Numbered from the stretch's first letter, positions 48,211-62,320 are shown. The stretch: DNA of 64,000 bases from Candidatus Dojkabacteria bacterium (GCA_030583825.1 CP129477.1:622491-686490), one strand, 5' to 3'. Numbers and translations: made by a program. The notes: a model not told the origin generated them from the letters alone.

Positions 48211-48543
48211 ATGGGAAAGAAAGTTACCGTTAAACAGGGTGAACAGCTTGTCTTGTTAATGACGTGCCAGAATTTAGAAGTAACATTAGCAGGTGACCAT
48301 CAAAGCGATGTTTCCCAGTTTGGTGAAGTCAGCTATGATGTTGATGAATGGAATGATTGGACTTATCTTTCTCCCTTTGAAGGGAAAGAACTACATATTT
48401 CTGATTTGCCAACTATCCCGTTTGGAATTTATTTCCACGATGTTGGGGAAGAATTCACTATACGGTTTACTCCGACTAAAGAAATGACTGTTCTAGTAGA
48501 AAGTATTGATGTTGGAACTATTCCACTTTCTACGCTAGATTAG
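48211..48543 (+). CDS. Small hypothetical protein, paralog A of a four-gene tandem family
   Basis: 110 aa with RBS AGGAG. Shares the N-terminal pattern KKVTVKQGEQ...LEVTLAG and the C-terminal motif (TIPLSTLD) with the three downstream genes. Confidence 0.6.
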   Translation: MGKKVTVKQGEQLVLLMTCQNLEVTLAGDHQSDVSQFGEVSYDVDEWNDWTYLSPFEGKELHISDLPTIPFGIYFHDVGEEFTIRFTPTKEMTVLVESIDVGTIPLSTLD

Positions 48544-48697
48544 TCTATATGAGTTACGCTGGGGAGAAAACAGTTGCATCTTCGAATACAGAAGTTTTTT
48601 CCCTTGCCTAACACCTTTTTTCAATTAAAACTCTCTCTTTATATCTTATAGTTGTGGTATAATTCTTGGACGTTCGATCATCTAGGAGCACGTGTAT

Positions 48698-49015
48698 ATG
48701 CTGAAGATTCAGGTGGGAAAGAATACGCCAAGTTTCGCACGGACTGTCGTTGTTAAAGCTACCAGCGCTGGGAAGCTTGTTATCCTGGCGGATGAAGAGG
48801 AGGTATCAATATCAGACGCGTCATCTAACATTGAAACAGTCATTACTGGCACGAATCCCACAGGAGTTTTGGTAAACGGAGTGAAGTATGACTCTGTTAT
48901 TGTTGTCACTAATACAGGGATGACAGAATTCTCTTGGTCGGTAAATTTTGGGCAACGGTACTATAACGAAAAGCTTCCAATCACCATAACACCTATGGCT
49001 ATGTCCAATGATTGA
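48698..49015 (+). CDS. Small hypothetical protein, paralog B
   Basis: MLKIQVGKNTPSFARTVVVKA... and C-terminal KLPITITPMAM. RBS AGGAG 9 nt upstream, own promoter TGGTATAATTC, own terminator downstream. Confidence 0.6.
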   Translation: MLKIQVGKNTPSFARTVVVKATSAGKLVILADEEEVSISDASSNIETVITGTNPTGVLVNGVKYDSVIVVTNTGMTEFSWSVNFGQRYYNEKLPITITPMAMSND

Positions 49016-49176
49016 AGAACGCCGGCAGGGCAGAGTATATAACACAATACATCCCTGCAGGCTTTTTTCCTTTTCGAATGTTAACTTTATGTAGTCAGTT
49101 CTCCCCATATTTCTTTACTTTGTACGTATTATAGGGTATAATTCGAGAGTGTTTTTTAGCGAAAGGAACGTAGAAA

Positions 49177-49473
49177 GTGGTACTTGAAGTGCAAATTGGC
49201 GAAGGTAACCCCTTCACGGTAGAAACAGTCTTTGTTGAGGGTGAAGACGATGTAGTTACGCGCCTCTTCATTGATGATGAAGAACTTGTTCCTGAGTTTC
49301 CAGTTCGTGTTCATGTTCGAGCTTTTGGCGGAATCCAAACCTCCAATGCGGGCAATCATGACGAAATGACTGTGTACTTAGGTATCCACCAAATGCCCGA
49401 TGCGGCGTATTTCAAGGATGGGATAGCCAGCCAGAAAGTTCGCAATTTCCCCGTTGAAATCACCGCGCTATGA
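49177..49473 (+). CDS. Small hypothetical protein, paralog C (GTG start)
   Basis: VLEVQIGEGNPFTVETVFVEG... clearly aligns with paralog B's LKIQVGKNTPSFARTVVVKA; C-terminal NFPVEITAL. Confidence 0.6.
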   Translation: MVLEVQIGEGNPFTVETVFVEGEDDVVTRLFIDDEELVPEFPVRVHVRAFGGIQTSNAGNHDEMTVYLGIHQMPDAAYFKDGIASQKVRNFPVEITAL

Positions 49474-49648
49474 CCGACCCTAAAAACTAAAAAACTTTTT
49501 ATGAACCAGCCGGGATATCCCAAATGAAAATATATCCCCGCTGGTTTTTCCTTTTATTTTCCTCTAGAAATTCGCAAACACCTTTATTTATTCCGCATTA
49601 TAGGATACAATACTATATCGCACATTGTATAGCTTGGAGTTCATTATC

Positions 49649-49978
49649 ATGTTAGTGAAGTTGGTAGTAAAGAACGGTGACAGCACCAAAGTAATCTTGA
49701 CCCCCAAAGTTGAGATTGATGCAGAGTGGAATATTCTCGCACACGTCCCTGTAGAAATAGAAGGGTATACAAGCATAGAAATTCATAATGCTTCGGGTAA
49801 CCTTAGAGAAGTGAGACTCTCTTTTGGTGAACGTTCTGTGTCCTGCATCTGGGCAACTATCTATCTCAATAAGCCCGGAAACTATATATTCTTTTTTCCA
49901 CCGAGAGATAGTGGCATCCCGACCCCAGAGTGGTTTATTTACACAAAAGAACTTCCTCTCACTATCACCGCGTCCTAA
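49649..49978 (+). CDS. Small hypothetical protein, paralog D
   Basis: MLVKLVVKNGDSTKVILTPKVE... with C-terminal ELPLTITAS. Preceded by a terminator (CCAGCCGGGATAT...ATATCCCCGCTGGTTTTT) and a -10 TACAAT. Confidence 0.55.
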   Translation: MLVKLVVKNGDSTKVILTPKVEIDAEWNILAHVPVEIEGYTSIEIHNASGNLREVRLSFGERSVSCIWATIYLNKPGNYIFFFPPRDSGIPTPEWFIYTKELPLTITAS

Positions 49979-50254
49979 ACATCCATTAATCCCCAGCAGG
50001 GAAAAATTTCTCATAATTTGCAACCTCCCTGCCGGTATACCCCTTAGACTTTCAGAAACTTCTCCCTCAATATCCTTTCCAATTTTGTCTCGATCAAACA
50101 AAACTCACGACAAAACTCTCTTTACACTTCACCTGTTCGCTCTCCAACTCATAAAATAGATATATCCTAGAGGAAAATATCTTGTTCACACTACAATACT
50201 CAATTTCAACATACAAAATTTGCGGGGGAATGCTCATGCTGTTATACTGTCTCC

Positions 50255-51760
50255 ATGATGTATCTACGCCCCAAGAAGTTAGATATCTTTGGTGACAAAA
50301 CGTCCCTAGAAATCTATATCAATAAAGAAACTGCCGATCAATCCGGTATTAAAGAGGGAGACCTCATTGATTTATCCTTTGCAACACTTGAAACAGGCGC
50401 AATTGCCGTTCTTACTGACACTCTTGTAGACGTCAGCGAAGTCGGTCTACCTGCCAGCTTGTGGACAGTTCATCCTGTTTCTTCGGAAGAATTAGTCGCA
50501 CTCGATGTTCAGGGTCAGGCAAAATCTATTCACTATATTCGAAAAAAGATTCTCGGTCAGCCATTAAACTACGAAGAAATTCGTGAAATTATGTACGACA
50601 TTGCAAAGCGACGTCTTTCACCTGTTGAAATGACATATTTCGCGTCAGCATCGTATAGTCCTGGGTTTTCAGAAGAAGAAATGCATTTTCTTACTAAAGG
50701 AATGGCAGAAACCGGAACAATCATGGACTTCAAAAAGATGGGTGAGTTTGTCGTTGATAAGCACTCGATTGGAGGATTGCCATCAAAAGGTGTGACTCCT
50801 GTATTAGTATCGCTTATGGCGTCACTCGGATTCATTATTCCTAACACAAGCACTCGAGCAATTACGTCTCCAGCGGGAACGTCTGACGTTCTTGAAACGA
50901 TGATGCCGGTTGATCTTACAGAACATGAAATCTACGATGTCGTAGGCAAAACAAACGGATGTTTAGTATGGGGTGGAGGTCTTGATCTTGCTCCTGCAGA
51001 CGACATTCTTATTCAGATTGAACGGCCATTGCATGTGGAATCGTATGACAAATTCATTGTTAGTATTATTGCCAAAAAGATAGCAACAGGAATTACACAT
51101 TTGATTCTTGATATCCCGTATGGAACAGGTACAAAAGTCCCTGATGCAGATGTTCCAGTTGTTGCTGGCGCATTTGAAAAGCTCTGTGCAAAGTTTGGTA
51201 TTAAAGTATTTGTATACAAGCGAACTTCTCGAGGAGTAGATGGAAACGGTATTGGGCCAGTATTGGAAGCACGAGATGTTTTATGGGTTCTGGAAAGAGA
51301 TAGTCGCCGACCAGTTGGTCTTGAAAATATCACACTTGATATGGCTGCACGCCTTATCGAAATTACCGGAAAACATACATACGAAGAAGCATTTAAACTC
51401 CTGCGTGAGCAGCTTGAGTCAAAGAAAGCATTGAAAAAGTTCTGGGAAATGGCCCGTGCACAGGGGGCGCAAGTAGAAATGAAAGGTGACGATATGATCC
51501 CAGGAAGCTATACATTTGACGTTGTAGCGCCAAAGTCAGGCACAATTGATCGCTATGATCCTCATGCAATCGTTGTTCTTACTAAAGCATTGGGAGCACC
51601 ATATGTTAAAAAAGCAGGAATTTATATTCGTCATCAACCGGGAGATTCTGTTAAAGAGGGCGATATTATCGCAACATTACACGCCGAAAGCGCAAATCGT
51701 TTGGCACTTGCAAAGCGAGTATTAGAAGAACAGAAAGAGAAGTTAGTGAGCTTTTCCTGA
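50255..51760 (+). CDS. AMP phosphorylase / thymidine-phosphorylase-family nucleoside phosphorylase (archaeal-type DeoA, ~500 aa with an extra N-terminal domain)
   Basis: DKHSIGGLPSKGVTPVLVSLMASLG...TSTRAITSPAGTSDVLE corresponds to the TP-family phosphate/glycosyl-binding core. The N-terminal LRPKKLDIFGDKTSLEIYINKETADQSGIKEGDLIDL and the 501-aa length resemble AMP phosphorylases rather than ~440-aa thymidine phosphorylases. Confidence 0.65.
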   Translation: MMYLRPKKLDIFGDKTSLEIYINKETADQSGIKEGDLIDLSFATLETGAIAVLTDTLVDVSEVGLPASLWTVHPVSSEELVALDVQGQAKSIHYIRKKILGQPLNYEEIREIMYDIAKRRLSPVEMTYFASASYSPGFSEEEMHFLTKGMAETGTIMDFKKMGEFVVDKHSIGGLPSKGVTPVLVSLMASLGFIIPNTSTRAITSPAGTSDVLETMMPVDLTEHEIYDVVGKTNGCLVWGGGLDLAPADDILIQIERPLHVESYDKFIVSIIAKKIATGITHLILDIPYGTGTKVPDADVPVVAGAFEKLCAKFGIKVFVYKRTSRGVDGNGIGPVLEARDVLWVLERDSRRPVGLENITLDMAARLIEITGKHTYEEAFKLLREQLESKKALKKFWEMARAQGAQVEMKGDDMIPGSYTFDVVAPKSGTIDRYDPHAIVVLTKALGAPYVKKAGIYIRHQPGDSVKEGDIIATLHAESANRLALAKRVLEEQKEKLVSFS

Positions 51761-51920
51761 TAGTAAGGACTTTGAAGAAAAAGCGGAACCGAGCAAAAAG
51801 ATAACTGACGTTATGTTTTGCGAAGGAGGTTAGAAGGCAATACAAAATCGTATGAAAGTGTAAGTGTAAAAAATAGAGAATAAGTACTAAAAAAAATTTA
51901 ATTTTGATCGGTAAAGGGAA

Positions 51921-53312
51921 ATGAAAGTGTCCTTTTTTGGAGCGAGTGGTGGCATTGTCACAGGCTCTTGCTATCTGATGGAAGTAGGCGATTTAAAAGT
52001 AGTTCTGGATTGTGGAATGTTCCAGGGTGAAGAAAAAATCGAAGAGTTAAACTATCGTGAGTGGCCATTTAATCCGGAAGAAGTTAATTTCCTTATTCTT
52101 ACACACGCTCATCTCGATCATACAGGACTTATCCCAAAATTTGTAAAAGATGGGTTTAAGGGCCGTATTATCAGTACCGATGCAACAAAACAACTTGCTG
52201 AAATCATTATGCTTGATGCAGCAAAGCTTCAGGAAGAGGCTGAGAAGCGTAACGAGAGTTCAGAGGCATTAACTCGACACACTGGGCCTTTATACACAAA
52301 AGAAGATGTCGAAAACACTATGGATCTTTTTGAAGTACATCCATACCATGAAATTGTCCGCCTTCGAGATAATTTTTCCTTTAGAATGCGTGAAGCAGGG
52401 CATATCTTGGGTTCTGCAACTGTCGAAATTTGGTTTAAAAACTCACAAGGACGAGAAAGGAAAATGGTATTTTCCGGTGACATTGGTCAAACTGGTGCAC
52501 GTATCATTCGTGATCCTGATTTTGTCCGCGAAGCCGATTATGTTGTTGTTGAAAGTACCTATGGTTCACGTAACCACAAAGATAAGAGTGCAACACTTTT
52601 GGAAATGCTTGCAATTCTTAATGAAGCATCAAGAACAGGCGGAAATGTCATTATTCCAACATTTGCAGTAGAGCGAGCACAGGAAATTTTGTATGAAATT
52701 AACCTTTTTGTAGAAAGAGGCGTATTACAGGGCTTAAAGTTCTATTTAGACAGCCCGCTTGCCATTCGAGCAACCGAAATTTTTAGACAATATAGAAAAT
52801 ATTACGACGAAGATGCAATTGCATTACTTCGCGCTGGAGATGATCCATTTTCATTTAGAGGATTGTTCTACACCCAAGGATCAAAAGAATCTATGAAACT
52901 TGCAACCGAAACATCGGCTGTTATTATGGCAGGAAGCGGAATGTGTAATGGAGGACGTGTTGTTCATCATTTGAAGAATCATTTGCCAAATGCTAATAAC
53001 CATGTGCTTTTTGTAGGATTCCAGGTTCCAGGTACATTGGGTCGCCGACTTGTTGATGGTGAACCAACAGTAAGAATCCATGGTCAGGAAGTGGAAGTAA
53101 AGGCAAAAATCCACACTCTTGGTGGTTTTTCGGCACATGCTGATCAAACAGACTTGTTGTATTGGTTGAGAAGCTTTGGACATAGTCCAAAGGAAGTGTT
53201 TATAACCCACGGAGATTCCGTGAATCGAGAAGGACTCGCAAAGAAAGTCGTTGAGGAGCTACAATTGAATACACATCTTCCCAATATTGGGGACAGTTTC
53301 GACCTTGAATAG
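51921..53312 (+). CDS. Beta-CASP family metallo-beta-lactamase ribonuclease (RNase J / CPSF-like)
   Basis: MBL motif LILTHAHLDHTG, beta-CASP motifs and C-terminal GGFSAHAD, HGDS; 463 aa. Confidence 0.75.
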   Translation: MKVSFFGASGGIVTGSCYLMEVGDLKVVLDCGMFQGEEKIEELNYREWPFNPEEVNFLILTHAHLDHTGLIPKFVKDGFKGRIISTDATKQLAEIIMLDAAKLQEEAEKRNESSEALTRHTGPLYTKEDVENTMDLFEVHPYHEIVRLRDNFSFRMREAGHILGSATVEIWFKNSQGRERKMVFSGDIGQTGARIIRDPDFVREADYVVVESTYGSRNHKDKSATLLEMLAILNEASRTGGNVIIPTFAVERAQEILYEINLFVERGVLQGLKFYLDSPLAIRATEIFRQYRKYYDEDAIALLRAGDDPFSFRGLFYTQGSKESMKLATETSAVIMAGSGMCNGGRVVHHLKNHLPNANNHVLFVGFQVPGTLGRRLVDGEPTVRIHGQEVEVKAKIHTLGGFSAHADQTDLLYWLRSFGHSPKEVFITHGDSVNREGLAKKVVEELQLNTHLPNIGDSFDLE

Positions 53313-53542
53313 GTAGGTAGGGTGGTGTATAATACTATGCATGTCGTTATTTCAGACAGTGTAGTACATGCAATCCTCGGAGCGGTGTCACATAGTGATG
53401 CCAGGGGGAGTTGCTTCGAGTTTTCTCGGGCAGCCAAGCTCCAGCGCATACAATCTAAAAACTAAGACCGTTATGTATGTGTCACTTTCTTACTAACTCG
53501 TCAGATTCTACAGTAGGGGAGCGCTAAAATTATAGTTTAGTC

Positions 53543-54814
53543 ATGTCAGAAGAACAGCCTCTTATAGGTACGGACTTTTCGGGATATATTGAACTAAAGA
53601 GAAAAAACCAACTGTTGTCGCTCGAGAACGACGACGCGAATCCATTATTGTTTGTAAAAAATATTGCAGGGTGGATCGTGTGGCGATCATTGCGAATTGT
53701 ATCTGGAATGCTTTCGTTTATCATTTTCTTACAGCGTGCAGTTATCAATCTTAAAACAGACATGCTTCAGATGTTCTATTGGGGAAGAAGCGCATCATTT
53801 GGCGTATTCTTACAGTCAGTCGCAGTATTTATTCTTGTAATTCTTGGATTCACATTCTTTGTAGGTGGTAGTACGGCGCTTTTAGATAGTCCAGCAAGTG
53901 CAGGACAGGAAGTTTCTGTAGAAAACTATGCTGCCTCATCACAATCGGACATTCTTATTCAAACCGGATCTCTTGAAACACAGCTTCCACAGGAACTTCA
54001 GCGTATCGAAATGGTTATTTATACCGTAAAGCCAGGTGATTCTATTGAGACAATTGCTGAACGATTTGAGCTTAACTTGGACAGCATCCGCTGGGCAAAC
54101 GATATTAAAGCAGGCGACACTATTAAATCGGGTCAACAGCTTCGTATTCCTCCGGGAGAAGGAGTCATGTATAAGGTACAGGATGGTGATAACCTCGAAA
54201 TTATTGCAGCAAAAACAAATTCGTCGCAGCAGGCAATTGCAGATGTAAACTTGCTCGATAAAACTGGAAATGTCGCTACGGGTTCAGAATTATTTATTCC
54301 AAATGGAACATTGCCCCAACCGACAAAGGCTCCAACAGTTGCACGTCCGGCAGTTGTACGACGCACAAACCCAGTACCAGCACCTCCAGCGGCAACACGA
54401 TTTTTAAGCTGGCCAGTGCAAAGCGGTGGTGGTTATATTTCACAATGTCCTAACGCATACCATGTTGCAATAGATATTGCTTCAGGTGGTGGAGGAACTC
54501 CAAATCTTGTTGCTGCAGCTCCAGGATTGGTTACATATGCAGGCTATCATAATAGTGGATACGCATGGGTTGTAGAAATTGACCACGGAAACGGATATTC
54601 TTCGCTATACGCTCATATGGTTCCTCAATCTATTACGGTTAGTGGCGGTCAATATGTTGATAGAGGTCAAGTTATTGGACGAATGGGACAATCGGGTCTT
54701 GCAACAGGTATTCACGTTCACTTTGAGCTTTCTCAGGGTGGAGGATTGAAGCGAAGTAAGCGTAAGCTTGTACCTCCTGCAGCGTATATGATTAATAGTT
54801 ATTGTGGATATTAA
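53543..54814 (+). CDS. Membrane-anchored LysM-LysM-M23 peptidase (peptidoglycan endopeptidase)
   Basis: TM helices, two LysM domains (YTVKPGDSIETIAERFELNLDSIRWAND...; YKVQDGDNLEIIAAKTNSSQQAIADVN), and M23 motifs HVAIDIA...GYAWVVEIDHGNGYSSLYAHM...TGIHVHFEL. Confidence 0.8.
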   Translation: MSEEQPLIGTDFSGYIELKRKNQLLSLENDDANPLLFVKNIAGWIVWRSLRIVSGMLSFIIFLQRAVINLKTDMLQMFYWGRSASFGVFLQSVAVFILVILGFTFFVGGSTALLDSPASAGQEVSVENYAASSQSDILIQTGSLETQLPQELQRIEMVIYTVKPGDSIETIAERFELNLDSIRWANDIKAGDTIKSGQQLRIPPGEGVMYKVQDGDNLEIIAAKTNSSQQAIADVNLLDKTGNVATGSELFIPNGTLPQPTKAPTVARPAVVRRTNPVPAPPAATRFLSWPVQSGGGYISQCPNAYHVAIDIASGGGGTPNLVAAAPGLVTYAGYHNSGYAWVVEIDHGNGYSSLYAHMVPQSITVSGGQYVDRGQVIGRMGQSGLATGIHVHFELSQGGGLKRSKRKLVPPAAYMINSYCGY

Positions 54815-55502
54815 ACCTGCATCACGTTCATAAAAAGAATGCTCAGCTTTTAACGCGTAACAAGTACGCTAAGCTTGCGCGCTTTTTACTCGCGCTCTTC
54901 GGTTTTTCAAGTGCTACGGCTTGCGGGATATTTTCAAATTCTCCTCATGCTATCATTGGCCCTGTGCGTGCTTTTTACTCATACTCTTCGGATTACTGAG
55001 TCTTATCAATCGTGGGACGTTTTCACTCGCTCCTCAGTGCATCGTTCGAATTCGTCTCAATGCCCAAAGGTTTGATAGCCACGTATATCCTACAAACACT
55101 TTGGGATTTCGACTCACCTTCGCTCTGCATGAGTACATGTTCTTTGTAACCTGACTTATTTCCCTTAGAAACCTTAAAATATGCGAATTTTGTGGGTGGC
55201 TTCTAATATTGCTAAGGCAGCTTATATGCTTGTAGAAGTATATAGATAATGCCCGGAGAGTCTTTACTTTCTACAAGGCGCTAGCAGTTATTTCATTCTC
55301 TGCTAGTAGGTTCTTGGGGTTAAAATATAGGGCTAAATGTCGTGATAGTATCGGTAACCCCGTATAAAAACGAATATAAATACTTTTGGTATACTGTTTT
55401 CAGAGAATATAACTCTCAGGTATTGGCATTTTTATAATCTTCTGTTAGGATGTATGCAAGTACTTGTGACACAAGAAAAATTTTAGTAGCATATTACTAA
55501 TT

Positions 55503-58500
55503 ATGAATCAGGGAAATGCCCCGCTGATCGCTGATCGAGCAAAATCAGTCTTCAGCTTTCTCATGAAACTATTGCTCATCGTTGTGATTATCTTTTTAAT
55601 TCTATGGTTTACAGGCCAGGGATCTGGACGTGAACAGCAGACTACGGGAGATAATGGCTCAGGCGATGGACAATCATTTACCTCAGGAGAAGTTAACAAC
55701 AATAACAACCAAGGATTAATTCCGGGTTTGAACGTTATTCGTGAAATTATCGCTCCTGATTTGCAATTCGCAAACCAAAACCAACTTTTCTGTTCAACAA
55801 ACAATATTACCAATACAACAATTGGTGGGCCAAATAACTACTTTAACGATGCGTATATTACAAATGTAAATGCAGATTCGCTCAATATTGATCCATACAC
55901 AATTAACAGTAATGGAATCACCAATACCAACGGTGGAGATATTAGACTTAATAACAATACAGTTATTTCAGGTGGATTATCAGTAACAAGTGGAAATATA
56001 AGTATCACGGGCAATCTTGTGAATTTTCCTGTTAACCCAGCCCATTTTGCAATTAGCACAGGTGTTCTTAACCTTGCAGATCCATACGCAACAGGTGCTG
56101 CATACGATTATCGTTTCTTCCCGCTAAATGGAACTTTAGACGATATTTCAAACGTTAATGCCCCTTCGCCAACAAGCGGTCAGGCATTGGTATGGAATGG
56201 AAGCGCATGGGTAGCACAAAATGTTGCTGCAGCAATCACAGGCTCAAACGGTATTACAGTATCGGGTGGAACAGACGTTCGACTTGGTGGAGCATTAAAT
56301 ACACCAACAACTGTTACTCAAGCTGGAAATACAATGACATTCAGCGGTGGAGCATTTGTCGTATCATCAGGCTCAAATGCAATCACCTTTAACACAGGTG
56401 TTGGACATCAGGTTAACCTTAATGGTTACTTCTCAGTTCGGAATAATTCTGGTGCAGATTCTATTGTTATTAATGGTGTTGAGTATTTCTTTCCTAATGC
56501 TGACGGAGCTTCCGGAGACTCTCTTATTACAGACGGCTCAGGAAACTTAGCATGGGGCCCTGCAAGTGCAGACGCAACAAACGGTTTACATGTTGATACC
56601 GGAGAAGTCAGACTCGGAGGATCACTTATCGAAAACACATATATTGATCAAGATGGATACGGCTTAGAGCTTTCAAATGGTTACTTCAGAGTTGATGCAG
56701 CATACGACAACCAGAATATTGACCTCTTTGGCTATGAAACTCTTGCAAGAGGAGAAAACTACCTTCGCTTGTACAGTAATAACGTACTTGAAATGACATC
56801 TGTAGGCTCAATGTATGTTGATGCTTTCAACCTTGAAATGACCACGGATGATTATTTAAATATTCGTTCTGATAACGCTTCGATAAATATCGAGGCGCCA
56901 AACGGAAACGTAGATGTGTATTCATGGGATTCAATCAACCTTGAAGCAGGGTATTACATCAACTCATACTCTGAGTACACTGACCTTTATACAGTTTACG
57001 ATTTTAATGTTACTGCCGGGTCTGGAAATCTTTACCTCCGCTCAAACAACTATGACGTAGAAATTAATGCGTTTAATGGTGGCTTTTATGGAAATTCTCA
57101 GTATATGGGGCTGTATGCAGATACAGGCTATATGATTAACTCAAATAACGGTTCCGGTCAGATTCAAGGATTCTGGGGCGTTGAGATGTATTCCGACAAT
57201 GGAGAAGTGAATATTGAAAACTATGTTCAGATCGAAGATTATTACATCACCATTTCGGGTGTTACGTACTACTGGCCATTCAGCGATGGATCATCAGGAC
57301 AACAGCTTACAACTGACGGTGCTGGTGGCTTATCATGGGAAAATGCCGGAGGCGGTGGTGGCGGCGGAGGCGGTGTCGGCGGAGCTGACAACGGTCTTCA
57401 TATGGATGGCGACCTTGTATATCTTGGAGGTTACCTTGTTGAGCACACAGATGTAAACCTCGACTTTGACTATCGTCTGAACTTTGTAAACGGAAATGTT
57501 GGTTTCGGAAACGATCTTCCAGTCGATCCAGATGAGCGTGACAGAATTACTGTCGCAGAAGGTGGTATCAATGTTATTAACCCAACAGAATTCCGACATC
57601 TTGGAGACTGGGGTAATGGCGGTGACTTCCAGGGGATCGAATATAAAGACAAATACGTTTATATTCGTGCACCAAACTATCGAGAAATCTTTATCGTTGA
57701 CGTGAGCAACAAAACAAATCCACAGCATATTGCAACGTGGACATTGCCTGATTGGGAAGATAACTATGAGCCTATGGGTTTGAAAGTTCGCGGAGACTAC
57801 ATGTACGTTTTGGCAATTAACTGGACAGATGAAGACTTACTTTACATTGTTGATATCAGAAGTCCAAGTAATCCAGCACTTATGACAACTCTGACATTAA
57901 ACACTTTCTCGGATGCTGGCCCAGGAATGAAGTTTGGAGAAATGGAAATTTCAGGAGATAGAATTTATGTTCCTTCGTATGTAAGTTCTGGATCACAAAT
58001 TGACGTATGGAACATTGTAAATCCAAGTCAGCCAAGATTTTGTACAACAATCGGTGTAAATAATCGAGTAGATATTGCAGCAATTAAAGTCCTTGGAGAA
58101 AAAGTATATTGGTCAACAAGTGATTGGGGAGATGGTGAAGTTGGTATTGCACAAGTAAGTTCATGTGGTGTTGGTGCATCAAGCTATACAAGCGGCCCAG
58201 GTAACAGAATGTATCGAGGTATTGATGTTACTGGACGATTCCTCTATGCCACTCGTGAAGATGGAAACTTAGATGTGTTCGAAGTTGATGACTTGAATAA
58301 CATTAACTATTACTCATCAGTATTTATTGGAGATTTACCTCGTCAGATTAAAATTGTCGGACGATATGCATACATTTCAACGACTGACGGCGGAACAATG
58401 AAAATTGTCGATATTCGTGATCCTGCAAACCCATCATGGATAGATAATGTCAATATTGATGATAACTGGACAGATTGGGTTATTGATTTTGAAATTGTTG

Positions 58501-60053
58501 GAGACTACATGTACGCAGTGCGAGGATTACAAGCTCTTTGGATTTGGGATCTTCGTGGTGGTAAATTTAACACGATGTCTGCAGGCGATCTTGCAACAGA
58601 CTATCTCCGGGTTGAAAACTACTTTAGCGTGACAAACGATGGACGATTCGGAGGAAACGTTAGCGTTGACCAAGACCTATCAATCACGGGAGAAGCACGA
58701 TTTAATACGCGACTTGTGTCTGGAAACTGTACAACAGCATCACTCGGTATTGTACTCTGTGATACTTTTGGAACACTTCGAAGTCACTTGAACACAATTT
58801 CAGGTGGAAACAGCTTTATGCTCGACAATGTCGTTGTCGGTGACTTTAGCCCGCTTGGAAGCGCACGATTAACAGCAGTTCACACAACAGGATTACCAAT
58901 GGCAGTCGCACGAGCAACAAATGGTACCTTAATGGGATTCTACCTTGGTGTCTCTCAGGAAGGCTCTATTACAGTATCAGGAACAACAGTATCGTATAAC
59001 GCATTCACTGGTTCGCACTACGCATATATTGATACAGACCCTGCAGAAACAATGGAAGTAGGAGAAGTTGTTCGATTAACTGGAAACAATAAGAATTTAC
59101 ACAACAATGCTGCTTCGGAAATCCTTTATGGAGTAGAGTCAAGCAAATATGAAAACGATCCACGAGTGCTTGGAGCATACCTCGCATTGCAGGATCCAAT
59201 TGAAGTTGAATCAGAAAGCAATCCTCATCTCGTAATGGCAACCGGTAACGGTGTCATGTGGGTTGAAGAAGGCGATGGAACAAATCTCCAGCCAGGAGAT
59301 TACTTGATCTCTTCACAGATTTCAGGTCATGCAAAGCTGGATCCACGAAGTCATTCAGTCAGCTACGTTATTGCAAGAGTTGCAGAGCCAGTTGATTGGA
59401 GCTCGGTAACACAAACAGTTACAGAAGGTTTGGAAACAAAGAAAAGAAAGTTAGTTTCAGTCTTTTACGAAAGCTTTGCTCGCGATAACGGAATTATGAT
59501 TGCATTGTCAGCAAGCGGATGGGCAGTAACCGGCGAAGATAAAATCCAAACTGGATATAGCGTTATTGCACCGAAAATTGTAAGCACAGTTGGTGAATTC
59601 AGCTTGCTCTCTGCAAAAGCATTTACAATTAACGAAGGAAACCTCGTTATTGACCAGGATGGAAACCTTACAACCGTTGGATCACTTACCGCACCGAAAG
59701 GCTCTATTCAGGAACTTGCAGTCAACAGTTTGAAAGCACTTGGTGGAGGAATCACAGTCTCACTTGGCAACGGAGAATCATTTGCAATCGTAAATAACTC
59801 TAACGAAGTAGTGCTTGGAGTTTCAAGCTCAGGAGAACTTCGTGCAGACAAAGCTGCCGGTACAGGAACAATTGCAGCAGGTCAAACAGAAGTAACAATT
59901 GCAAACTCAGTTGCAAAGAGTGGCTCACGAATCATCGTAACGCCGCAGGGTAACGCTCGAGTGTATGTAAAACAGAAAGCTAATGGCTCATTTGTGGTTG
60001 CGGTAGATAGTGCAGGCGCAGCAGTGGACTTTGACTATCTAATAGTAAACTAA
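55503..60053 (+). CDS. Giant (1516 aa) membrane-anchored surface protein with an LVIVD-type beta-propeller region, a duplicated tail-fibre-like motif and a poly-Gly tract
   Basis: N-terminal TM LMKLLLIVVIIFLILWFTG. At least seven LVIVD-like repeats, for example KYVYIRAPNYREIFIVDVSNKTNPQHI, GDYMYVLAINWTDEDLLYIVDIRSPSNP and GRYAYISTTDGGTMKIVDIRDPANP. Two copies of Y(F/Y)(F/W)P..DG.SG..L.TDG.G.L.W, and G9VGG. Confidence 0.75.
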   Translation: MNQGNAPLIADRAKSVFSFLMKLLLIVVIIFLILWFTGQGSGREQQTTGDNGSGDGQSFTSGEVNNNNNQGLIPGLNVIREIIAPDLQFANQNQLFCSTNNITNTTIGGPNNYFNDAYITNVNADSLNIDPYTINSNGITNTNGGDIRLNNNTVISGGLSVTSGNISITGNLVNFPVNPAHFAISTGVLNLADPYATGAAYDYRFFPLNGTLDDISNVNAPSPTSGQALVWNGSAWVAQNVAAAITGSNGITVSGGTDVRLGGALNTPTTVTQAGNTMTFSGGAFVVSSGSNAITFNTGVGHQVNLNGYFSVRNNSGADSIVINGVEYFFPNADGASGDSLITDGSGNLAWGPASADATNGLHVDTGEVRLGGSLIENTYIDQDGYGLELSNGYFRVDAAYDNQNIDLFGYETLARGENYLRLYSNNVLEMTSVGSMYVDAFNLEMTTDDYLNIRSDNASINIEAPNGNVDVYSWDSINLEAGYYINSYSEYTDLYTVYDFNVTAGSGNLYLRSNNYDVEINAFNGGFYGNSQYMGLYADTGYMINSNNGSGQIQGFWGVEMYSDNGEVNIENYVQIEDYYITISGVTYYWPFSDGSSGQQLTTDGAGGLSWENAGGGGGGGGGVGGADNGLHMDGDLVYLGGYLVEHTDVNLDFDYRLNFVNGNVGFGNDLPVDPDERDRITVAEGGINVINPTEFRHLGDWGNGGDFQGIEYKDKYVYIRAPNYREIFIVDVSNKTNPQHIATWTLPDWEDNYEPMGLKVRGDYMYVLAINWTDEDLLYIVDIRSPSNPALMTTLTLNTFSDAGPGMKFGEMEISGDRIYVPSYVSSGSQIDVWNIVNPSQPRFCTTIGVNNRVDIAAIKVLGEKVYWSTSDWGDGEVGIAQVSSCGVGASSYTSGPGNRMYRGIDVTGRFLYATREDGNLDVFEVDDLNNINYYSSVFIGDLPRQIKIVGRYAYISTTDGGTMKIVDIRDPANPSWIDNVNIDDNWTDWVIDFEIVGDYMYAVRGLQALWIWDLRGGKFNTMSAGDLATDYLRVENYFSVTNDGRFGGNVSVDQDLSITGEARFNTRLVSGNCTTASLGIVLCDTFGTLRSHLNTISGGNSFMLDNVVVGDFSPLGSARLTAVHTTGLPMAVARATNGTLMGFYLGVSQEGSITVSGTTVSYNAFTGSHYAYIDTDPAETMEVGEVVRLTGNNKNLHNNAASEILYGVESSKYENDPRVLGAYLALQDPIEVESESNPHLVMATGNGVMWVEEGDGTNLQPGDYLISSQISGHAKLDPRSHSVSYVIARVAEPVDWSSVTQTVTEGLETKKRKLVSVFYESFARDNGIMIALSASGWAVTGEDKIQTGYSVIAPKIVSTVGEFSLLSAKAFTINEGNLVIDQDGNLTTVGSLTAPKGSIQELAVNSLKALGGGITVSLGNGESFAIVNNSNEVVLGVSSSGELRADKAAGTGTIAAGQTEVTIANSVAKSGSRIIVTPQGNARVYVKQKANGSFVVAVDSAGAAVDFDYLIVN

Positions 60054-60096
60054 CTGCAGGCGAGTTTCACAAAAATTATTTGTTACAGAAAATCCT

Positions 60097-61041
60097 ATGG
60101 ATCAGAAAATTCCTGATGTAATTCAGCAGACTATTGATGATATTGCAGCAATTAAAGTACAGGGAGCAACAAATGTCGCGTTAGCTACATTTGCAGCAAT
60201 CGAAGAATGGGCAAAAAAGACAGATATTACAGAGTGGGAAGTCTTTAAAGATAGAGCAGCGACATATGCAAATATGCTTGCAAATGCCCGTCCAAACGAA
60301 CCTCTTGCAAAGAATGGTGTCCGATATATGATGACCAACCTTACCGTTAAGTACCCAGGAATCAAAGATGTAAAAGCAGGTGCAGACGCGTTTATTGAGC
60401 TTGCTTCTTCGTATAATAAGCTTCTTCGTGAGTCAAAAATCAAAATTGCTGGTTACGGACTCGAAGTCGGAAAAGACACAAATACCGTATTTACTCACTG
60501 TCACTCAAGCACAGCAGAAGCAATTATTGTTGGTTTAAACCAGCAGAGAAAGAGAGTTGCAATTGCAACAGAAACACGTCCGTTATATCAGGGGAGAATC
60601 ACCGCAAAGAACCTTGTTACTCACGGAGTAAAGACAATTATGATTGTTGATTCAGCAGCATCATACTTCATTAAAGATGACGAAAATCTTCCTGTTGATA
60701 TGGTATTTCTTGGCGCTGACCAGGTAAATGTCTATGGAGATGCAGTAAACAAAGTTGGAAGCTTTAGCATGGGACTTGCATCATATTTTGCAAGCAAGCC
60801 ATTGTATATTGTGACTCCAAGCTTGAAATTGGATCTGACAACAATCTACCAGCCTATTAAAATTGAGCTTCGCAAGGGCAACGAAATTTGGCCAGAAGCA
60901 CCAGAAGGTTTAGAAATTATCAATCCGGCATTCGACATTGTTCCTCACCAGTTTATCACTGGATACATTACGGAGCTAGGAGTTATTAAGCCTGGAGAAT
61001 TAGAGGACAAAGTTCGTAGAGCCTATGAATGGGTTTCGTAG
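60097..61041 (+). CDS. eIF-2B alpha/beta/delta-family isomerase, most consistent with ribose-1,5-bisphosphate isomerase (e2b2); alternatively MtnA-like
   Basis: 314 aa with the eIF-2B-family fold motifs VFTHCHSSTAEAII, ATETRPLYQGRITAK..., GADQVNVYGDAVNKVGSFSMGLASY. Sits 8 kb downstream of an AMP-phosphorylase-like gene. Confidence 0.55.
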   Translation: MDQKIPDVIQQTIDDIAAIKVQGATNVALATFAAIEEWAKKTDITEWEVFKDRAATYANMLANARPNEPLAKNGVRYMMTNLTVKYPGIKDVKAGADAFIELASSYNKLLRESKIKIAGYGLEVGKDTNTVFTHCHSSTAEAIIVGLNQQRKRVAIATETRPLYQGRITAKNLVTHGVKTIMIVDSAASYFIKDDENLPVDMVFLGADQVNVYGDAVNKVGSFSMGLASYFASKPLYIVTPSLKLDLTTIYQPIKIELRKGNEIWPEAPEGLEIINPAFDIVPHQFITGYITELGVIKPGELEDKVRRAYEWVS

Positions 61042-61052
61042 CATTTTTTGAA

Positions 61053-61143
61053 TGAATCCACGATTTTTCGTAGTAAATATTCATTGGGATTATTACAAAT
61101 ACCGCGAATTTACGTTAAGCGATAAATCGCTGCATGAATGAAA
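61053..61143. repeat. ~90-nt intergenic element, copy B (see 13307-13395)
   Basis: TGAATCCACGATTTTTCGTAGTAAATATTCATT ... CGAATTTACGTTAAGCGATAAATCGCTGCATGAATGAAAG; about 90% identical to copy A outside a variable middle. Located between the e2b2-like gene and ychF. Confidence 0.75.
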
Positions 61144-61177
61144 GAAATGTTATGAAATTTTATGATAAAATACGTCT

Positions 61178-62320
61178 ATGAAATCAATCGGAATTGTTGG
61201 ACTTCCAAACGTCGGTAAATCCACGCTTTTTAACGTTATTACGAATCTTTCAGTACCTGCAGAGAACTTTCCTTTCACGACGATAGACAAAAATAGCGGA
61301 ATTATTGACTATAAAGATCCTCGTATGGAAGCATTAGCAAAAAATGTAAATGCTGCTGCAACATACCCTGCAGTCATTCAGTTTACCGATATTGCCGGTC
61401 TTATCAAAGGAGCATCAAAAGGTGAAGGGCTGGGAAATCAGTTTCTTTCTCATATTCGAGAAGTTGACCTTATCATGTATGTTTTGCGTGGTTTTAATGA
61501 CCAGAAAGTGACTCATGTATATAACCGTGTTAATCCTCGCGAAGATATGGCAGATGTCGTAACAGAGCTTATTCTGCGCGATATTGAGAGTATCAATAAA
61601 AAAATTACAACAATCGAGGCACAGAGCAAGAAAGGGAAGTCGGAAGCAACACAAAAAGATATTGCTGCACTGCAAGACCTTATCGCATACTTTGATGAAG
61701 GGAAATCTGCGTATTTATATGTCCACGAAAAGCTCCAGGGCAAAGAAAAAGAACCTCAGCGGCAGCTTATTAATGAGCTATTTTTACTCACAAATAAGCC
61801 TATTCTCTGTGTGCTAAACGTCTCTTACATTGATATGAATACAAAGGCATATGCAGAACAAGTTGAGAAATGGACGAAAGAAGTTCGTGAGTATGCAGAG
61901 TCAGTGTATGGCAATGGAGAAGCAGCGGAAATTGCATGGATAGATTCACGTTTTCTGGCCGATTTACAATCACTCACCAGTGAGGAAGTAGAAGAGTTTA
62001 AAGCAGAATTATCGTATTTTTGTGATGTTCAGACTCTCGTAGAGATGGCAAAACGAAAGTTAAAGCTATTAAACTTCTTTGTTGGTAACGAAAAAGATGC
62101 GCGAAGCTGGTTCATCGAAGAAGGTGGCGATATTTTGAAAGCTGCATCCCTGATTCATACAAGCCTTGCGCAGACATTTGTTCGCGCTCAGGTTATCAAA
62201 GTTGAAGATCTTATTGAGATGGGGACATGGAATAAAGTAAAAGAAGCCGGAAAGCTTAAAACTGTGGGTAAAGACTATGTCGTTGAAGACGGAGATTATG
62301 TTGTCATTTTGGCCTCGTAA
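61178..62320 (+). CDS. ychF: Ribosome-binding ATPase YchF/Ola1 (with an inserted helical domain and a C-terminal TGS domain)
   Basis: G1 GIVGLPNVGKSTLFN, G3 DIAGL, NxxD-like region, and the C-terminal TGS segment KDYVVEDGDYVVILA. Confidence 0.85.
   Translation: MKSIGIVGLPNVGKSTLFNVITNLSVPAENFPFTTIDKNSGIIDYKDPRMEALAKNVNAAATYPAVIQFTDIAGLIKGASKGEGLGNQFLSHIREVDLIMYVLRGFNDQKVTHVYNRVNPREDMADVVTELILRDIESINKKITTIEAQSKKGKSEATQKDIAALQDLIAYFDEGKSAYLYVHEKLQGKEKEPQRQLINELFLLTNKPILCVLNVSYIDMNTKAYAEQVEKWTKEVREYAESVYGNGEAAEIAWIDSRFLADLQSLTSEEVEEFKAELSYFCDVQTLVEMAKRKLKLLNFFVGNEKDARSWFIEEGGDILKAASLIHTSLAQTFVRAQVIKVEDLIEMGTWNKVKEAGKLKTVGKDYVVEDGDYVVILAS

What the first reader, a model, noticed from the sequence alone, without database searches (positions are those of the whole stretch)
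50255..61041. AMP-phosphorylase-like and ribose-1,5-bisphosphate-isomerase-like genes on either side of a giant surface protein: two of the three enzymes of the archaeal/CPR RuBisCO nucleotide-salvage pathway
The 501-aa TP-family protein has the extra N-terminal domain and length typical of archaeal AMP phosphorylase (DeoA-like), not bacterial thymidine phosphorylase. The 314-aa eIF-2B-family protein has the size of R15P isomerase (e2b2). In archaea and many CPR bacteria these two enzymes feed a form II/III RuBisCO (AMP to R15P to RuBP to 3-PGA). No RuBisCO gene is in this window. The pair is separated by an RNase, an M23 peptidase and a 1516-aa surface protein, so it is not an operon.
Basis: partly seen in the sequence, partly recalled or inferred. 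Interest (0 to 1): 0.5.

Follow-up and report, generated by a model that had tools for sequence, protein, structure and literature searches.

The report
Known nucleotide-to-RuBP genes in Dojkabacteria

Summary
Both ORFs exist exactly as described (50255-51760, 501 aa; 60097-61041, 314 aa). The window is a chromosome segment near oriC of a Candidatus Dojkabacteria MAG (1,090,595-bp contig; proteins WKZ29768.1 and WKZ29772.1, both annotated 'hypothetical'). Profile scores, closest solved structures, diagnostic motifs, ligand-binding residues and NJ trees place the first protein with archaeal/CPR AMP (NMP) phosphorylases, not TP/PyNP. They place the second with R15P isomerases, not MtnA or eIF2B. 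Both are under strong purifying selection. Their orthologues in other CPR genomes sit directly beside a form III-c RuBisCO. The pathway in Dojkabacteria was published in 2016-2019, so novelty is low. The intervening 'RNase' is not an unrelated gene. This beta-CASP RNase is a recurrent neighbour of the module in every Dojkabacteria arrangement sampled and in several other CPR loci, and the split layout is conserved across this genome's clade. RuBisCO is absent from the window, its near flanks and six clade loci. No clade contig appears among the 120 best form III-c hits. Forms II/III and III-like could not be tested, so RuBisCO presence in this genome remains open.

The parts
50255..51760 (+). 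AMP (nucleoside-5'-monophosphate) phosphorylase homologue, archaeal/CPR type (GenBank WKZ29768.1, QY314_03080, annotated 'hypothetical protein')
   Evidence: Pfam Glycos_trans_3N, Glycos_transf_3 and PYNP_C. NCBIfam PRK04350 427 bits, TIGR02645 419, TIGR03327 AMP_phos 409, versus PyNP 192 and TP 181. The best PDB hit is Tk-AMPpase 4GA5 at 259 bits over residues 8-486, including the extra N-terminal domain, versus PyNP at 112. Motifs HSIGGLP and STRAITSPAGT are of AMPpase type. NJ tree. dN/dS 0.043.
51921..53312 (+). beta-CASP metallo-beta-lactamase RNase (TTHA0252-like), a recurrent neighbour of the AMPpase/e2b2 genes in Dojkabacteria and some other CPR bacteria; inferred supplier of 5'-NMPs
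   Evidence: Pfam Beta-Casp, RMMBL and Lactamase_B. The best PDB hit is T. thermophilus RNase TTHA0252 at 293 bits; TTHA0252 is reported to have 5'-3' exo-RNase activity (PMC4229858). Homologues lie next to AMPpase and/or e2b2 in L002, L006-L014, L092-L097, L098, L099, L102, L106, L108, L113, L118, L119 and L150. dN/dS 0.052.
53543..54814 (+). LysM + M23 peptidase; a conserved neighbour within this clade only, probably cell-wall related and not part of the pathway
   Evidence: Pfam Peptidase_M23 81 bits, LysM 68 bits. Present after the beta-CASP gene in L092-L097, but absent from the module in other Dojkabacteria.
55503..60053 (+). 1516-aa LVIVD-repeat protein with an N-terminal hydrophobic segment; occupies a variable slot between M23 and e2b2
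   Evidence: Pfam LVIVD 49 bits. In relatives the slot holds a 1595-aa LVIVD protein (L092), FemAB only (L094), or FemAB plus an unrelated 930-aa protein (L096). It is the fastest-evolving gene of the block (71% aa identity to L092 versus 88-93% for its neighbours; dN/dS 0.086).
60097..61041 (+). Ribose-1,5-bisphosphate isomerase homologue (e2b2; GenBank WKZ29772.1, QY314_03100, annotated 'hypothetical protein')
   Evidence: Pfam IF-2B 183 bits. NCBIfam TIGR00511 ribulose_e2b2 is best at 180 bits, versus mtnA at 135. The best PDB hits are the P. horikoshii and T. kodakarensis R15P isomerases at 133 and 129 bits, versus MtnA at 92. Catalytic C135 and D208, 5-phosphate S137 and K244, 1-phosphate R65, Q165 and K219, and sugar ligand N218 are conserved. 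It has the C-H-S motif and lacks the MtnA insertion. dN/dS 0.034.

Best explanation
The 501-aa protein is an orthologue of archaeal/CPR AMP (NMP) phosphorylase. It cleaves a nucleoside 5'-monophosphate with phosphate into the free base and ribose-1,5-bisphosphate (R15P). The 314-aa protein is an orthologue of R15P isomerase and converts R15P to ribulose-1,5-bisphosphate (RuBP). Both are functional genes of a Candidatus Dojkabacteria chromosome. They belong to a conserved neighbourhood that derives from an ancestral operon (beta-CASP RNase, [RuBisCO], e2b2, AMPpase), rearranged in this clade to AMPpase, beta-CASP, M23, variable insert, e2b2. Shown here: family membership by sequence, motifs, ligand residues and trees; orthology to RuBisCO-adjacent genes; purifying selection; conserved synteny. 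Inferred: the enzymatic activities; that the neighbouring beta-CASP 5'-3' exo-RNase supplies the NMP substrates from RNA; and that the RuBP is consumed by a RuBisCO (form II/III or III-like) encoded elsewhere in the 1.09-Mb genome, giving 3-phosphoglycerate for lower glycolysis, as already proposed for Dojkabacteria.
For: Organism: a 100% match to QY314_03080 of a Dojkabacteria MAG on a 1,090,595-bp contig.

AMPpase identity: NCBIfam archaeal-type models score 409-427 bits versus 181-192 for PyNP/TP. Tk-AMPpase 4GA5 scores 259 bits over the full length, including the N-terminal domain, versus 112 for PyNP. The AMPpase-type motifs are present. In the NJ tree the protein sits inside a Dojkabacteria clade that includes the RuBisCO-adjacent L150.

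Isomerase identity: e2b2 is the best NCBIfam model and the R15P isomerases are the best PDB hits. Every side-chain ligand listed for P. horikoshii R15Pi (PMC5789824) is conserved except R22Q, and that substitution is shared by all 64 CPR homologues, including 28 encoded beside RuBisCO. The MtnA-specific C-N-A-G motif with its 8-residue insertion is absent, and the 5-phosphate Lys is present.

Functional constraint: dN/dS is 0.034-0.043, like Rho, RadA and S1.

Linkage: e2b2, RbcL, AMPpase triplets occur in about 30 CPR loci. L150 has Dojkabacteria synteny with RbcL between beta-CASP and e2b2. 18 contigs carry both a form III-c RuBisCO and an AMPpase or e2b2 homologue.

Literature: all RuBisCO-bearing CPR genomes have both homologues (PMC5113843); deoA and e2b2 are vertically inherited while RuBisCO is laterally transferred (PMC6389311); AMPpase and RuBisCO are conserved in Dojkabacteria (PMC7304191).
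Against: Both proteins score below NCBIfam's curated equivalog cut-offs (409 versus 535 for AMP_phos; 180 versus 314 for e2b2), and GenBank calls both hypothetical.

No RuBisCO was found in the 64-kb window, in about 6.5 kb upstream or 2.7 kb downstream, or in six loci of the same clade.

None of the clade's long contigs (1,090,595; 1,051,512; 1,140,820; 659,080; 668,260; 555,128 bp and others) appears among the 120 best form III-c RuBisCO hits, although 18 more distant Dojkabacteria/CPR contigs do.

The AMP-activator site of the archaeal isomerase is mostly not conserved. No enzyme activity was measured.
Confidence: 0.65

Rival explanations
1. Same two enzymes, but this clade has no RuBisCO. 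RuBP, or R15P itself, is then consumed by a RuBisCO-independent route. [quoted passage not shown] Another would be conversion of R15P to PRPP for nucleotide salvage.
For: RuBisCO is absent from the window, its flanks and six clade loci. No clade contig is among the top 120 form III-c hits, whereas 18 other Dojkabacteria/CPR contigs are. In L150 and L154 RuBisCO lies between the module genes (beta-CASP, RbcL, e2b2, AMPp in L150; e2b2, RbcL, AMPp in L154), but no RuBisCO lies among them in this clade. There is precedent for organisms that keep R15P isomerase without RuBisCO (PMC9700705). RuBisCO distribution in CPR bacteria is patchy and driven by lateral transfer, while deoA and e2b2 are vertically inherited (PMC6389311).
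Against: A top-120 list is not an exhaustive search. No HAD phosphatase or FucA-type aldolase is seen in the window. AMPpase and RuBisCO are reported as conserved in Dojkabacteria (PMC7304191).
Confidence: 0.22
2. The first protein is an ordinary bacterial thymidine or pyrimidine-nucleoside phosphorylase, and the second is MtnA (methionine salvage) or a non-catalytic eIF2B-like protein. On this reading the pairing has nothing to do with RuBP.
For: All these families share Pfam domains with the two proteins. NCBIfam's best-scoring model name for protein 1 is 'thymidine phosphorylase' (PRK04350), and TIGR00524 'eIF-2B_rel' scores close to e2b2 for protein 2.
Against: PRK04350 and TIGR02645 are the archaeal-type models that align over the extra N-terminal domain. 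The true PyNP and TP models score less than half as much. The motifs are HSIGGLP and RAITSPAGT, not HSTGGVGD and RGLGHTGGT. Protein 2 has C-H-S rather than C-N-A-G, lacks the MtnA insertion, and has the 5-phosphate Lys that MtnA lacks. It keeps the catalytic Cys that eIF2B-alpha lacks, and the 1-phosphate ligands R65, Q165 and K219 of a set that eIF2B-alpha lacks (only R22 is changed, to Gln) (PMC5789824). Both NJ trees separate the proteins from these families by long branches.
Confidence: 0.03
3. The two genes are decaying remnants of a lost pathway and no longer function.
For: They are separated from each other, RuBisCO is not nearby, scores fall below the curated cut-offs, and both are annotated as hypothetical.
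Against: Both are intact full-length ORFs with all catalytic residues. dN/dS is 0.03-0.04 against an 88-93% identical relative, the same as housekeeping genes. Both genes and their order are conserved across a clade that spans 64-88% AMPpase identity.
Confidence: 0.03

Closest known systems
CPR AMP/nucleoside pathway of Dojkabacteria, Peregrinibacteria and others (Wrighton et al. 2016, PMC5113843; Jaffe et al. 2019, PMC6389311)
   Same: Same phylum, same two enzyme families (deoA-type AMP phosphorylase and e2b2 R15P isomerase), and the same proposed role: nucleotide to R15P to RuBP to 3-PGA. The isomerase has the same R15P-specific residues those authors reported. deoA and e2b2 follow organism phylogeny here too.
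   Different: In this clade RuBisCO is not among the module genes and was not located at all. The two genes are 4-8 kb apart, with cell-envelope genes between them. The papers read here do not mention the beta-CASP RNase neighbour.
Thermococcus kodakarensis AMP metabolic / pentose bisphosphate pathway (AMPpase TK0353, PDB 4GA4-4GA6; R15P isomerase TK0185, PDB 3A11, 3A9C, 3VM6; form III RuBisCO). Gene numbers are from my own knowledge.
   Same: Full-length similarity to both characterised enzymes, including the AMPpase N-terminal domain. Catalytic Cys and Asp and the phosphate and sugar ligands of the isomerase are conserved.
   Different: The two proteins score 259 and 129 bits against the T. 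kodakarensis enzymes, and both fall below NCBIfam equivalog cut-offs. Arg22 is Gln, as in all CPR, DPANN and Asgard e2b2 examined. Residues of the AMP-activator site (R124, R190, R229, W231, D290 in P. horikoshii numbering) are replaced, so AMP activation may be absent.
Non-carboxylating pentose bisphosphate pathway of halophilic archaea (Sato et al. 2022, PMC9700705)
   Same: A precedent for organisms that keep R15P isomerase without RuBisCO. It would apply here if the genome proves to lack RuBisCO.
   Different: That pathway reaches R15P through a nucleoside phosphorylase and a ribose-1-phosphate kinase, not AMPpase. Its downstream enzymes (an HAD RuBP phosphatase and a FucA-type aldolase) were not seen in the window.
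Thermus thermophilus RNase TTHA0252 (beta-CASP family; PDB 2DKF, 3IEK-3IEM)
   Same: It is the closest solved structure to the neighbouring 463-aa protein (293 bits, nearly full length). It has the same single-module beta-CASP architecture, without KH domains or the RNase J C-terminal domain. It is reported to have 5'-3' exo-RNase activity (PMC4229858).
   Different: No link to nucleotide catabolism is reported for TTHA0252. The functional coupling proposed here rests on gene neighbourhood only.

Membership tests
AMP (NMP) phosphorylase, archaeal/CPR type (TIGR03327; deoA of the AMP pathway) | TP-family core (helical bundle, alpha/beta domain, PYNP_C) plus an extra N-terminal domain of about 85 residues | tested here: met
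   Pfam domains cover residues 93-490. Residues 8-89 align to residues 7-85 of Tk-AMPpase 4GA5. 4GA4, the N-terminally truncated construct, aligns only from residue 90.
AMP (NMP) phosphorylase, archaeal/CPR type (TIGR03327; deoA of the AMP pathway) | Closer to the characterised AMPpase than to TP/PyNP | tested here: met
   259 versus 112 bits in the PDB. 409-427 versus 181-192 bits in NCBIfam. The NJ tree puts it with Tk-AMPpase and the RuBisCO-adjacent CPR genes, across a long branch from PyNP and TP.
AMP (NMP) phosphorylase, archaeal/CPR type (TIGR03327; deoA of the AMP pathway) | AMPpase-type active-site loops (HSIGGxP and S-x-RAITS-x-AGT, instead of HSTGGVGD and SGRGLGHTGGT) | tested here: met
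   Ours reads DKHSIGGLPSKG and TSTRAITSPAGTSD. Tk reads DVHSIGGVPGNK and TSSRAITSAAGTAD. PyNP and TP read DKHSTGGVGD and SGRGLGHTGGT. That these loops define substrate class is my inference from the alignment, not from a paper I read.
AMP (NMP) phosphorylase, archaeal/CPR type (TIGR03327; deoA of the AMP pathway) | Score at or above NCBIfam's equivalog cut-off (535 bits) | tested here: not met
   409 bits. The model is built on archaeal sequences. All CPR relatives are similarly divergent, and many carry only generic names such as 'thymidine phosphorylase'.
AMP (NMP) phosphorylase, archaeal/CPR type (TIGR03327; deoA of the AMP pathway) | Phosphorolysis of AMP, CMP or UMP to base plus R15P | not testable with these tools
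   Needs an enzyme assay.
Ribose-1,5-bisphosphate isomerase (e2b2; TIGR00511) | PF01008 fold with catalytic Cys and Asp (C135 and D204 in P. horikoshii) | tested here: met
   IF-2B 183 bits over residues 20-299. C135 lies in THCHS and D208 in GAD. The PDB C135S and D204N mutants confirm which residues are meant (PMC5789824).
Ribose-1,5-bisphosphate isomerase (e2b2; TIGR00511) | 5-phosphate ligands (Ser137, Lys240) that distinguish R15P from methylthioribose-1-phosphate | tested here: met
   S137 and K244 are present in ours and in all 64 CPR homologues. The four MtnA structures have C-N-A-G with an 8-residue insertion at the Ser position, and Ser or Thr at the Lys position.
Ribose-1,5-bisphosphate isomerase (e2b2; TIGR00511) | 1-phosphate and sugar ligands (Arg22, Arg65, Gln166, Lys215, Asn214) | tested here: inconclusive
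   R65, Q165, K219 and N218 are conserved. Arg22 is Gln in ours and in every CPR, DPANN and Asgard homologue examined, including those encoded beside RuBisCO. This is a lineage-wide difference from the Thermococcales enzymes, not a private loss.
Ribose-1,5-bisphosphate isomerase (e2b2; TIGR00511) | Score at or above NCBIfam's equivalog cut-off (314 bits) | tested here: not met
   180 bits. It is still the best-scoring model, ahead of eIF-2B_rel at 172 and mtnA at 135.
Ribose-1,5-bisphosphate isomerase (e2b2; TIGR00511) | AMP-activator site of the Thermococcales enzymes (R124, R190, K194, R229, W231, D290) | tested here: not met
   Ours has V124, S189, K193, S233, P235 and T288. This is a regulatory feature of the archaeal enzymes, not a catalytic requirement.
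Complete AMP / pentose bisphosphate pathway with RuBisCO | A form II/III, III-b, III-c or III-like RuBisCO large subunit in the same genome | tested here: inconclusive
   None in the window, its flanks or six clade loci. Forms II/III and III-like were not probed.
MtnA (methylthioribose-1-phosphate isomerase) | C-N-A-G-x-L-A-T active-site segment, and the higher score to MtnA models and structures | tested here: not met
   Ours has C-H-S and lacks the 8-residue insertion. mtnA scores 135 bits versus e2b2 at 180. MtnA structures score 92 bits or less versus 133 for R15Pi.
Phosphoribulokinase (for the PF00485 ORF at 12277-12954) | Best match to PRK rather than uridine kinase models | tested here: not met
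   Uridine kinase models score 116 and 110 bits versus PRK at 72, all below their cut-offs. Jaffe et al. found PRK homologues in only two CPR lineages, Gottesmanbacteria and Peregrinibacteria.

The most novel reading that the evidence does not exclude
This Dojkabacteria clade keeps AMP phosphorylase and R15P isomerase under strong purifying selection but has lost RuBisCO altogether. If so, RuBP or R15P is consumed by a RuBisCO-independent route. That would be the first bacterial counterpart of the haloarchaeal non-carboxylating pentose bisphosphate pathway, fed with 5'-NMPs by the co-located beta-CASP exo-RNase.
Probability: 0.2. Interest if true: 0.6.

Novelty: already known. Interest (0 to 1): 0.2.

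Why it matters
As an instance of the CPR nucleotide-salvage (AMP) pathway it adds little, because the pathway, both gene families and their presence in Dojkabacteria were published in 2016-2019.

Three modest points have some value. (1) GenBank annotates both proteins as 'hypothetical', and they fall below NCBIfam cut-offs, so automated metabolic reconstructions of such genomes will miss the pathway. (2) A beta-CASP 5'-3' exo-RNase stays linked to AMPpase and/or e2b2 through at least five different gene orders. This suggests a testable RNA to NMP to R15P to RuBP catabolic module, and I found no paper connecting the two. (3) This clade has removed RuBisCO from the module. If the complete genome lacks RuBisCO, that would point to a RuBisCO-independent fate of RuBP in a bacterium.

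Tried and rejected
(1) RuBisCO in the window: Pfam scans of all ORFs of 120 aa or more, and a six-frame tblastn. Nothing found.

(2) Supplementary RuBisCO alignment of Jaffe 2019: not held in the library.

(3) RuBisCO in this genome. I obtained CPR RuBisCO probes from a metagenome scan around AMPpase relatives. The last protein-database search, with Dojkabacteria form III-c RuBisCO, found no hit on this contig or on any clade contig. Both results are inconclusive rather than negative. Forms II/III and III-like could not be probed.

(4) L129 (668,113-bp contig) was suspected to be a clade relative because of its contig length. Rejected: AMPpase is only 39% identical and GC is 50%.

(5) PRK reading of ORF 12277-12954: rejected, it is uridine-kinase-like.

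(6) Cas14 reading of the beta-CASP protein (the top NCBIfam name): rejected. It scores 415 against a cut-off of 800, lacks the C-terminal part of the 612-position model, and is closer to TTHA0252.

(7) The idea that the FemX-like gene at 11137-12231 is the relocated orthologue of the clade's FemAB gene, moved by recombination at the 50-nt repeat: rejected, only 21-24% identity.

(8) Promoter and terminator scans of 49900-61400: counts are no higher than in shuffled sequence, so they say nothing about transcription units.

(9) Rfam on the AMPpase to beta-CASP spacer: no match.

(10) Aono et al. 2012 (PMC3510611): not held, so the substrate range of AMPpase is cited only through Wrighton 2016's summary.

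Full report
OBSERVATION. [quoted passage not shown] The intergenic gaps are 160, 230, 688 and 43 bp. The rest of the window is ordinary bacterial chromosome near the replication origin. It carries RecR, DnaX, DnaE, DnaA, MreB, CCA-adding enzyme, CysRS, S1, ClpB/C, RadA, Rho, YchF, L10 and S6, with about 40% GC. No ORF hits a RuBisCO family, and a six-frame tblastn with two RbcL probes is empty.

ORGANISM. The 501-aa protein is identical to WKZ29768.1 (QY314_03080) of a 'Candidatus Dojkabacteria bacterium' MAG. The 314-aa protein is identical to WKZ29772.1 (QY314_03100). Both lie on a 1,090,595-bp contig, and GenBank annotates both as 'hypothetical protein'. Dojkabacteria (WS6) is a CPR phylum.

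PROTEIN 1 IS AN AMP-PHOSPHORYLASE-TYPE ENZYME.
- NCBIfam's archaeal-type models score 409-427 bits (PRK04350, TIGR02645, TIGR03327 AMP_phos). The pyrimidine-nucleoside and thymidine phosphorylase models score 181-192.
- The closest solved structure is the characterised T. kodakarensis AMPpase (4GA5) at 259 bits. It aligns from residue 8, so the extra N-terminal domain is covered. PyNP structures score 112 bits or less and align only from residue 92.
- Two active-site loops are of the AMPpase type. Ours reads DKHSIGGLPSKG and TSTRAITSPAGTSD. Tk reads DVHSIGGVPGNK and TSSRAITSAAGTAD. PyNP and TP read DKHSTGGVGD and SGRGLGHTGGT.
- In an NJ tree the protein sits in a Dojkabacteria clade that includes an orthologue encoded beside RuBisCO (L150). 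That clade lies inside a CPR plus archaeal AMPpase group containing the Tk enzyme, separated by a long branch from PyNP and TP.
- It misses NCBIfam's equivalog cut-off (409 versus 535), which explains the 'hypothetical' annotation.

PROTEIN 2 IS AN R15P-ISOMERASE-TYPE ENZYME.
- PF01008 covers residues 20-299. TIGR00511 (e2b2) is the best NCBIfam model at 180 bits, ahead of mtnA at 135, and below its cut-off of 314.
- The best structures are the P. horikoshii and T. kodakarensis R15P isomerases at 133 and 129 bits, ahead of MtnA at 92 bits or less and eIF2B subunits at 66 bits or less.
- I mapped the ligand residues listed for the P. horikoshii enzyme (PMC5789824). Catalytic C135 and D204 correspond to our C135 and D208. 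The 5-phosphate ligands S137 and K240 correspond to S137 and K244. The 1-phosphate ligands R65, Q166 and K215 correspond to R65, Q165 and K219. The sugar ligand N214 corresponds to N218. All are conserved.
- The one change is R22 to Gln. It occurs in all 64 CPR homologues examined, including 28 encoded beside a RuBisCO, and in DPANN and Asgard homologues. It is therefore a lineage feature and not a defect of this gene.
- Four real MtnA sequences from the PDB have C-N-A-G with an 8-residue insertion where R15P isomerases and our protein have C-H-S. They also lack the 5-phosphate Lys. The NJ tree agrees.
- The AMP-activator site of the Thermococcales enzyme is mostly not conserved.

BOTH GENES ARE FUNCTIONAL. 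Against the 88-93% identical relative on L092, dN/dS is 0.043 for AMPpase and 0.034 for e2b2. That is the same range as Rho, RadA and S1. dS is near saturation, so the ratios are rough.

SURROUNDINGS AND RELATIVES.
- In six loci from this genome's own clade (AMPpase 64-88% identical) the order is conserved: Rho, AMPpase, beta-CASP RNase, LysM/M23, variable slot, e2b2, YchF. The slot holds FemAB alone, FemAB plus a 930-aa protein, or a 1516 to 1595-aa LVIVD protein. The split layout is therefore a clade character. The 'giant surface protein' is the fast-evolving occupant of a variable slot (71% identity, dN/dS 0.086).
- In more distant Dojkabacteria the genes are contiguous. Six contigs have CCA enzyme, beta-CASP, e2b2, AMPpase, (transglutaminase), YchF, S6. 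L150 has the same frame with RuBisCO inserted: beta-CASP, RbcL, e2b2, AMPpase.
- Across other CPR lineages, about 30 loci show e2b2, RbcL, AMPpase triplets. Nine of them have a beta-CASP homologue just upstream.
- A third arrangement (L009-L011) has AMPpase divergent from enolase plus beta-CASP.
It stays next to AMPpase and/or e2b2 through at least five gene orders.
- Its closest solved relative is T. thermophilus TTHA0252 (293 bits), which is reported to have 5'-3' exo-RNase activity (PMC4229858). That activity would release 5'-NMPs, the substrate class of the NMP phosphorylase.
- I found no paper containing both 'AMP phosphorylase' and 'beta-CASP'. The functional coupling is an inference from neighbourhood only. 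I did not correct for phylogenetic non-independence.

THE RUBISCO QUESTION. This could not be settled.
- Negative evidence: the window; about 6.5 kb upstream and 2.7 kb downstream from same-strain contigs; and six clade loci.
- The last protein-database search used two Dojkabacteria form III-c RuBisCOs as the query. Eighteen contigs carry both a III-c RuBisCO and an AMPpase or e2b2 homologue. All of them are the distant relatives (44-51% AMPpase identity).
- None of this clade's contigs appears, including 1,090,595, 1,051,512, 1,140,820, 659,080, 668,260 and 555,128 bp. Neither do the contigs of the beta-CASP, e2b2, AMPpase type that lack RbcL.
- A close form III-c RuBisCO is therefore unlikely here.
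- The literature says AMPpase and RuBisCO are conserved in Dojkabacteria (PMC7304191). It also says RuBisCO is patchy and laterally transferred, whereas deoA and e2b2 are vertically inherited (PMC6389311).
- I put the chance that this genome has a RuBisCO at about two in three.

MECHANISM.
- Shown: two intact, constrained genes whose products have the architecture, motifs and ligand residues of AMP/NMP phosphorylase and R15P isomerase. They are orthologous to genes that sit beside RuBisCO in related genomes.
- Inferred: NMP plus phosphate gives base plus R15P (AMPpase). R15P is converted to RuBP (isomerase). RuBP plus CO2 plus H2O gives two 3-PGA, through a RuBisCO encoded elsewhere. NMPs are supplied at least in part by the neighbouring beta-CASP exo-RNase.
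- The main rival is the same chemistry up to RuBP with a RuBisCO-independent sink, as in halophilic archaea (PMC9700705).
- The TP/PyNP plus MtnA reading and the pseudogene reading are contradicted by the tests above.

COMPARISON AND NOVELTY. This is the CPR 'AMP pathway' of Wrighton et al. 2016 and Jaffe et al. 2019, in the phylum for which Wrighton et al. proposed the name Dojkabacteria. It differs from the published picture only in details: the split, RuBisCO-free layout of this clade; the unreported beta-CASP linkage; and the non-conserved AMP-activator site. The finding as written is correct but already known, so I score its interest at 0.2. The residual interest lies in the RuBisCO-less possibility (probability about 0.2) and in the RNase linkage.

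They were used only as search probes or as an outgroup.

Noticed in passing
window 51921-53312; loci L006-L014, L092-L099, L102, L106, L108, L113, L118, L119, L150: A TTHA0252-like beta-CASP RNase stays next to AMPpase and/or e2b2 through at least five gene orders in Dojkabacteria and some other CPR lineages. This suggests an RNA to 5'-NMP to R15P to RuBP module. No paper in the library mentions both 'AMP phosphorylase' and 'beta-CASP'.
   Followed up: partly
window 51787-51835 (+) and 10872-10921 (-): A repeat of about 50 nt (90% identical) containing ATAAC-N4-GTTAT followed by GAAGGAGG. One copy lies 27 nt after the AMPpase stop codon; the other lies in the convergent gap after the FemX-like gene. 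Four short-read contigs of the same strain (L001, L003-L005) all end inside it, which suggests more copies in the genome. No Rfam match.
   Followed up: partly
window 54815-60096; L092 14417-19735; L094 14368-15597; L096 14405-18477: The slot between the M23 peptidase and e2b2 is a hot spot of gene turnover within the clade. It holds an LVIVD giant protein (1516 or 1595 aa), FemAB alone, or FemAB plus an unrelated 930-aa protein.
   Followed up: partly
window 12277-12954: A PF00485 kinase that scores best as uridine kinase (116 bits) rather than phosphoribulokinase (72 bits), with both below their cut-offs. A uridine/cytidine kinase would make UMP and CMP, possible substrates of the NMP phosphorylase.
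   Followed up: partly
window 48211-49978: Four consecutive small ORFs (110, 107, 98 and 117 aa) lie between Rho and the AMPpase gene with no Pfam match. They are present in same-strain contigs, with differing small ORFs in this position in the 88% relative. I did not test whether they are paralogues of one another.
   Followed up: no
window 60097-61041 and all CPR, DPANN and Asgard e2b2 in L006-L177: The 1-phosphate ligand Arg22 of the Thermococcales R15P isomerases is Gln in every non-Thermococcales homologue examined. The AMP-activator site residues are mostly replaced, so the AMP activation described for the archaeal enzyme may not apply.
   Followed up: partly
L150 5787-7094; L154 1331-2605: The two Dojkabacteria form III-c RuBisCOs are only 52% identical to each other. 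They share a C-terminal extension of about 20-30 residues (…WGV[YF]xIxxG…TYI…L[IV]K) that is absent from the other CPR form III probes.
   Followed up: no
L098, L099, L103, L104, L110, L112, L119, L121, L129, L136 ('uncultured Gammaproteobacteria'); L116, L125, L126, L144, L150 ('uncultured Candidatus Saccharibacteria'): Many public MAG records that carry CPR-type e2b2, RuBisCO, AMPpase clusters have titles that look wrong for their content. For example, L150 has Dojkabacteria synteny but is titled Saccharibacteria.
   Followed up: no
window 1160-4255, 4882-8337, 8445-10757, 13400-15052: Several more very large predicted surface proteins lie in the same window: CarboxypepD_reg/SpaA-like proteins of 1031 and 1151 aa, an RCC1-repeat protein of 770 aa, and a PEGA-domain protein of 550 aa.
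   Followed up: no
L181 4419-5405 (about 1.2 kb upstream of recR, which starts at window position 430): A 328-aa protein with a faint phosphoribosyltransferase (PF00156) hit lies just outside the window. It may be relevant to base salvage after AMPpase releases the free base.
   Followed up: no
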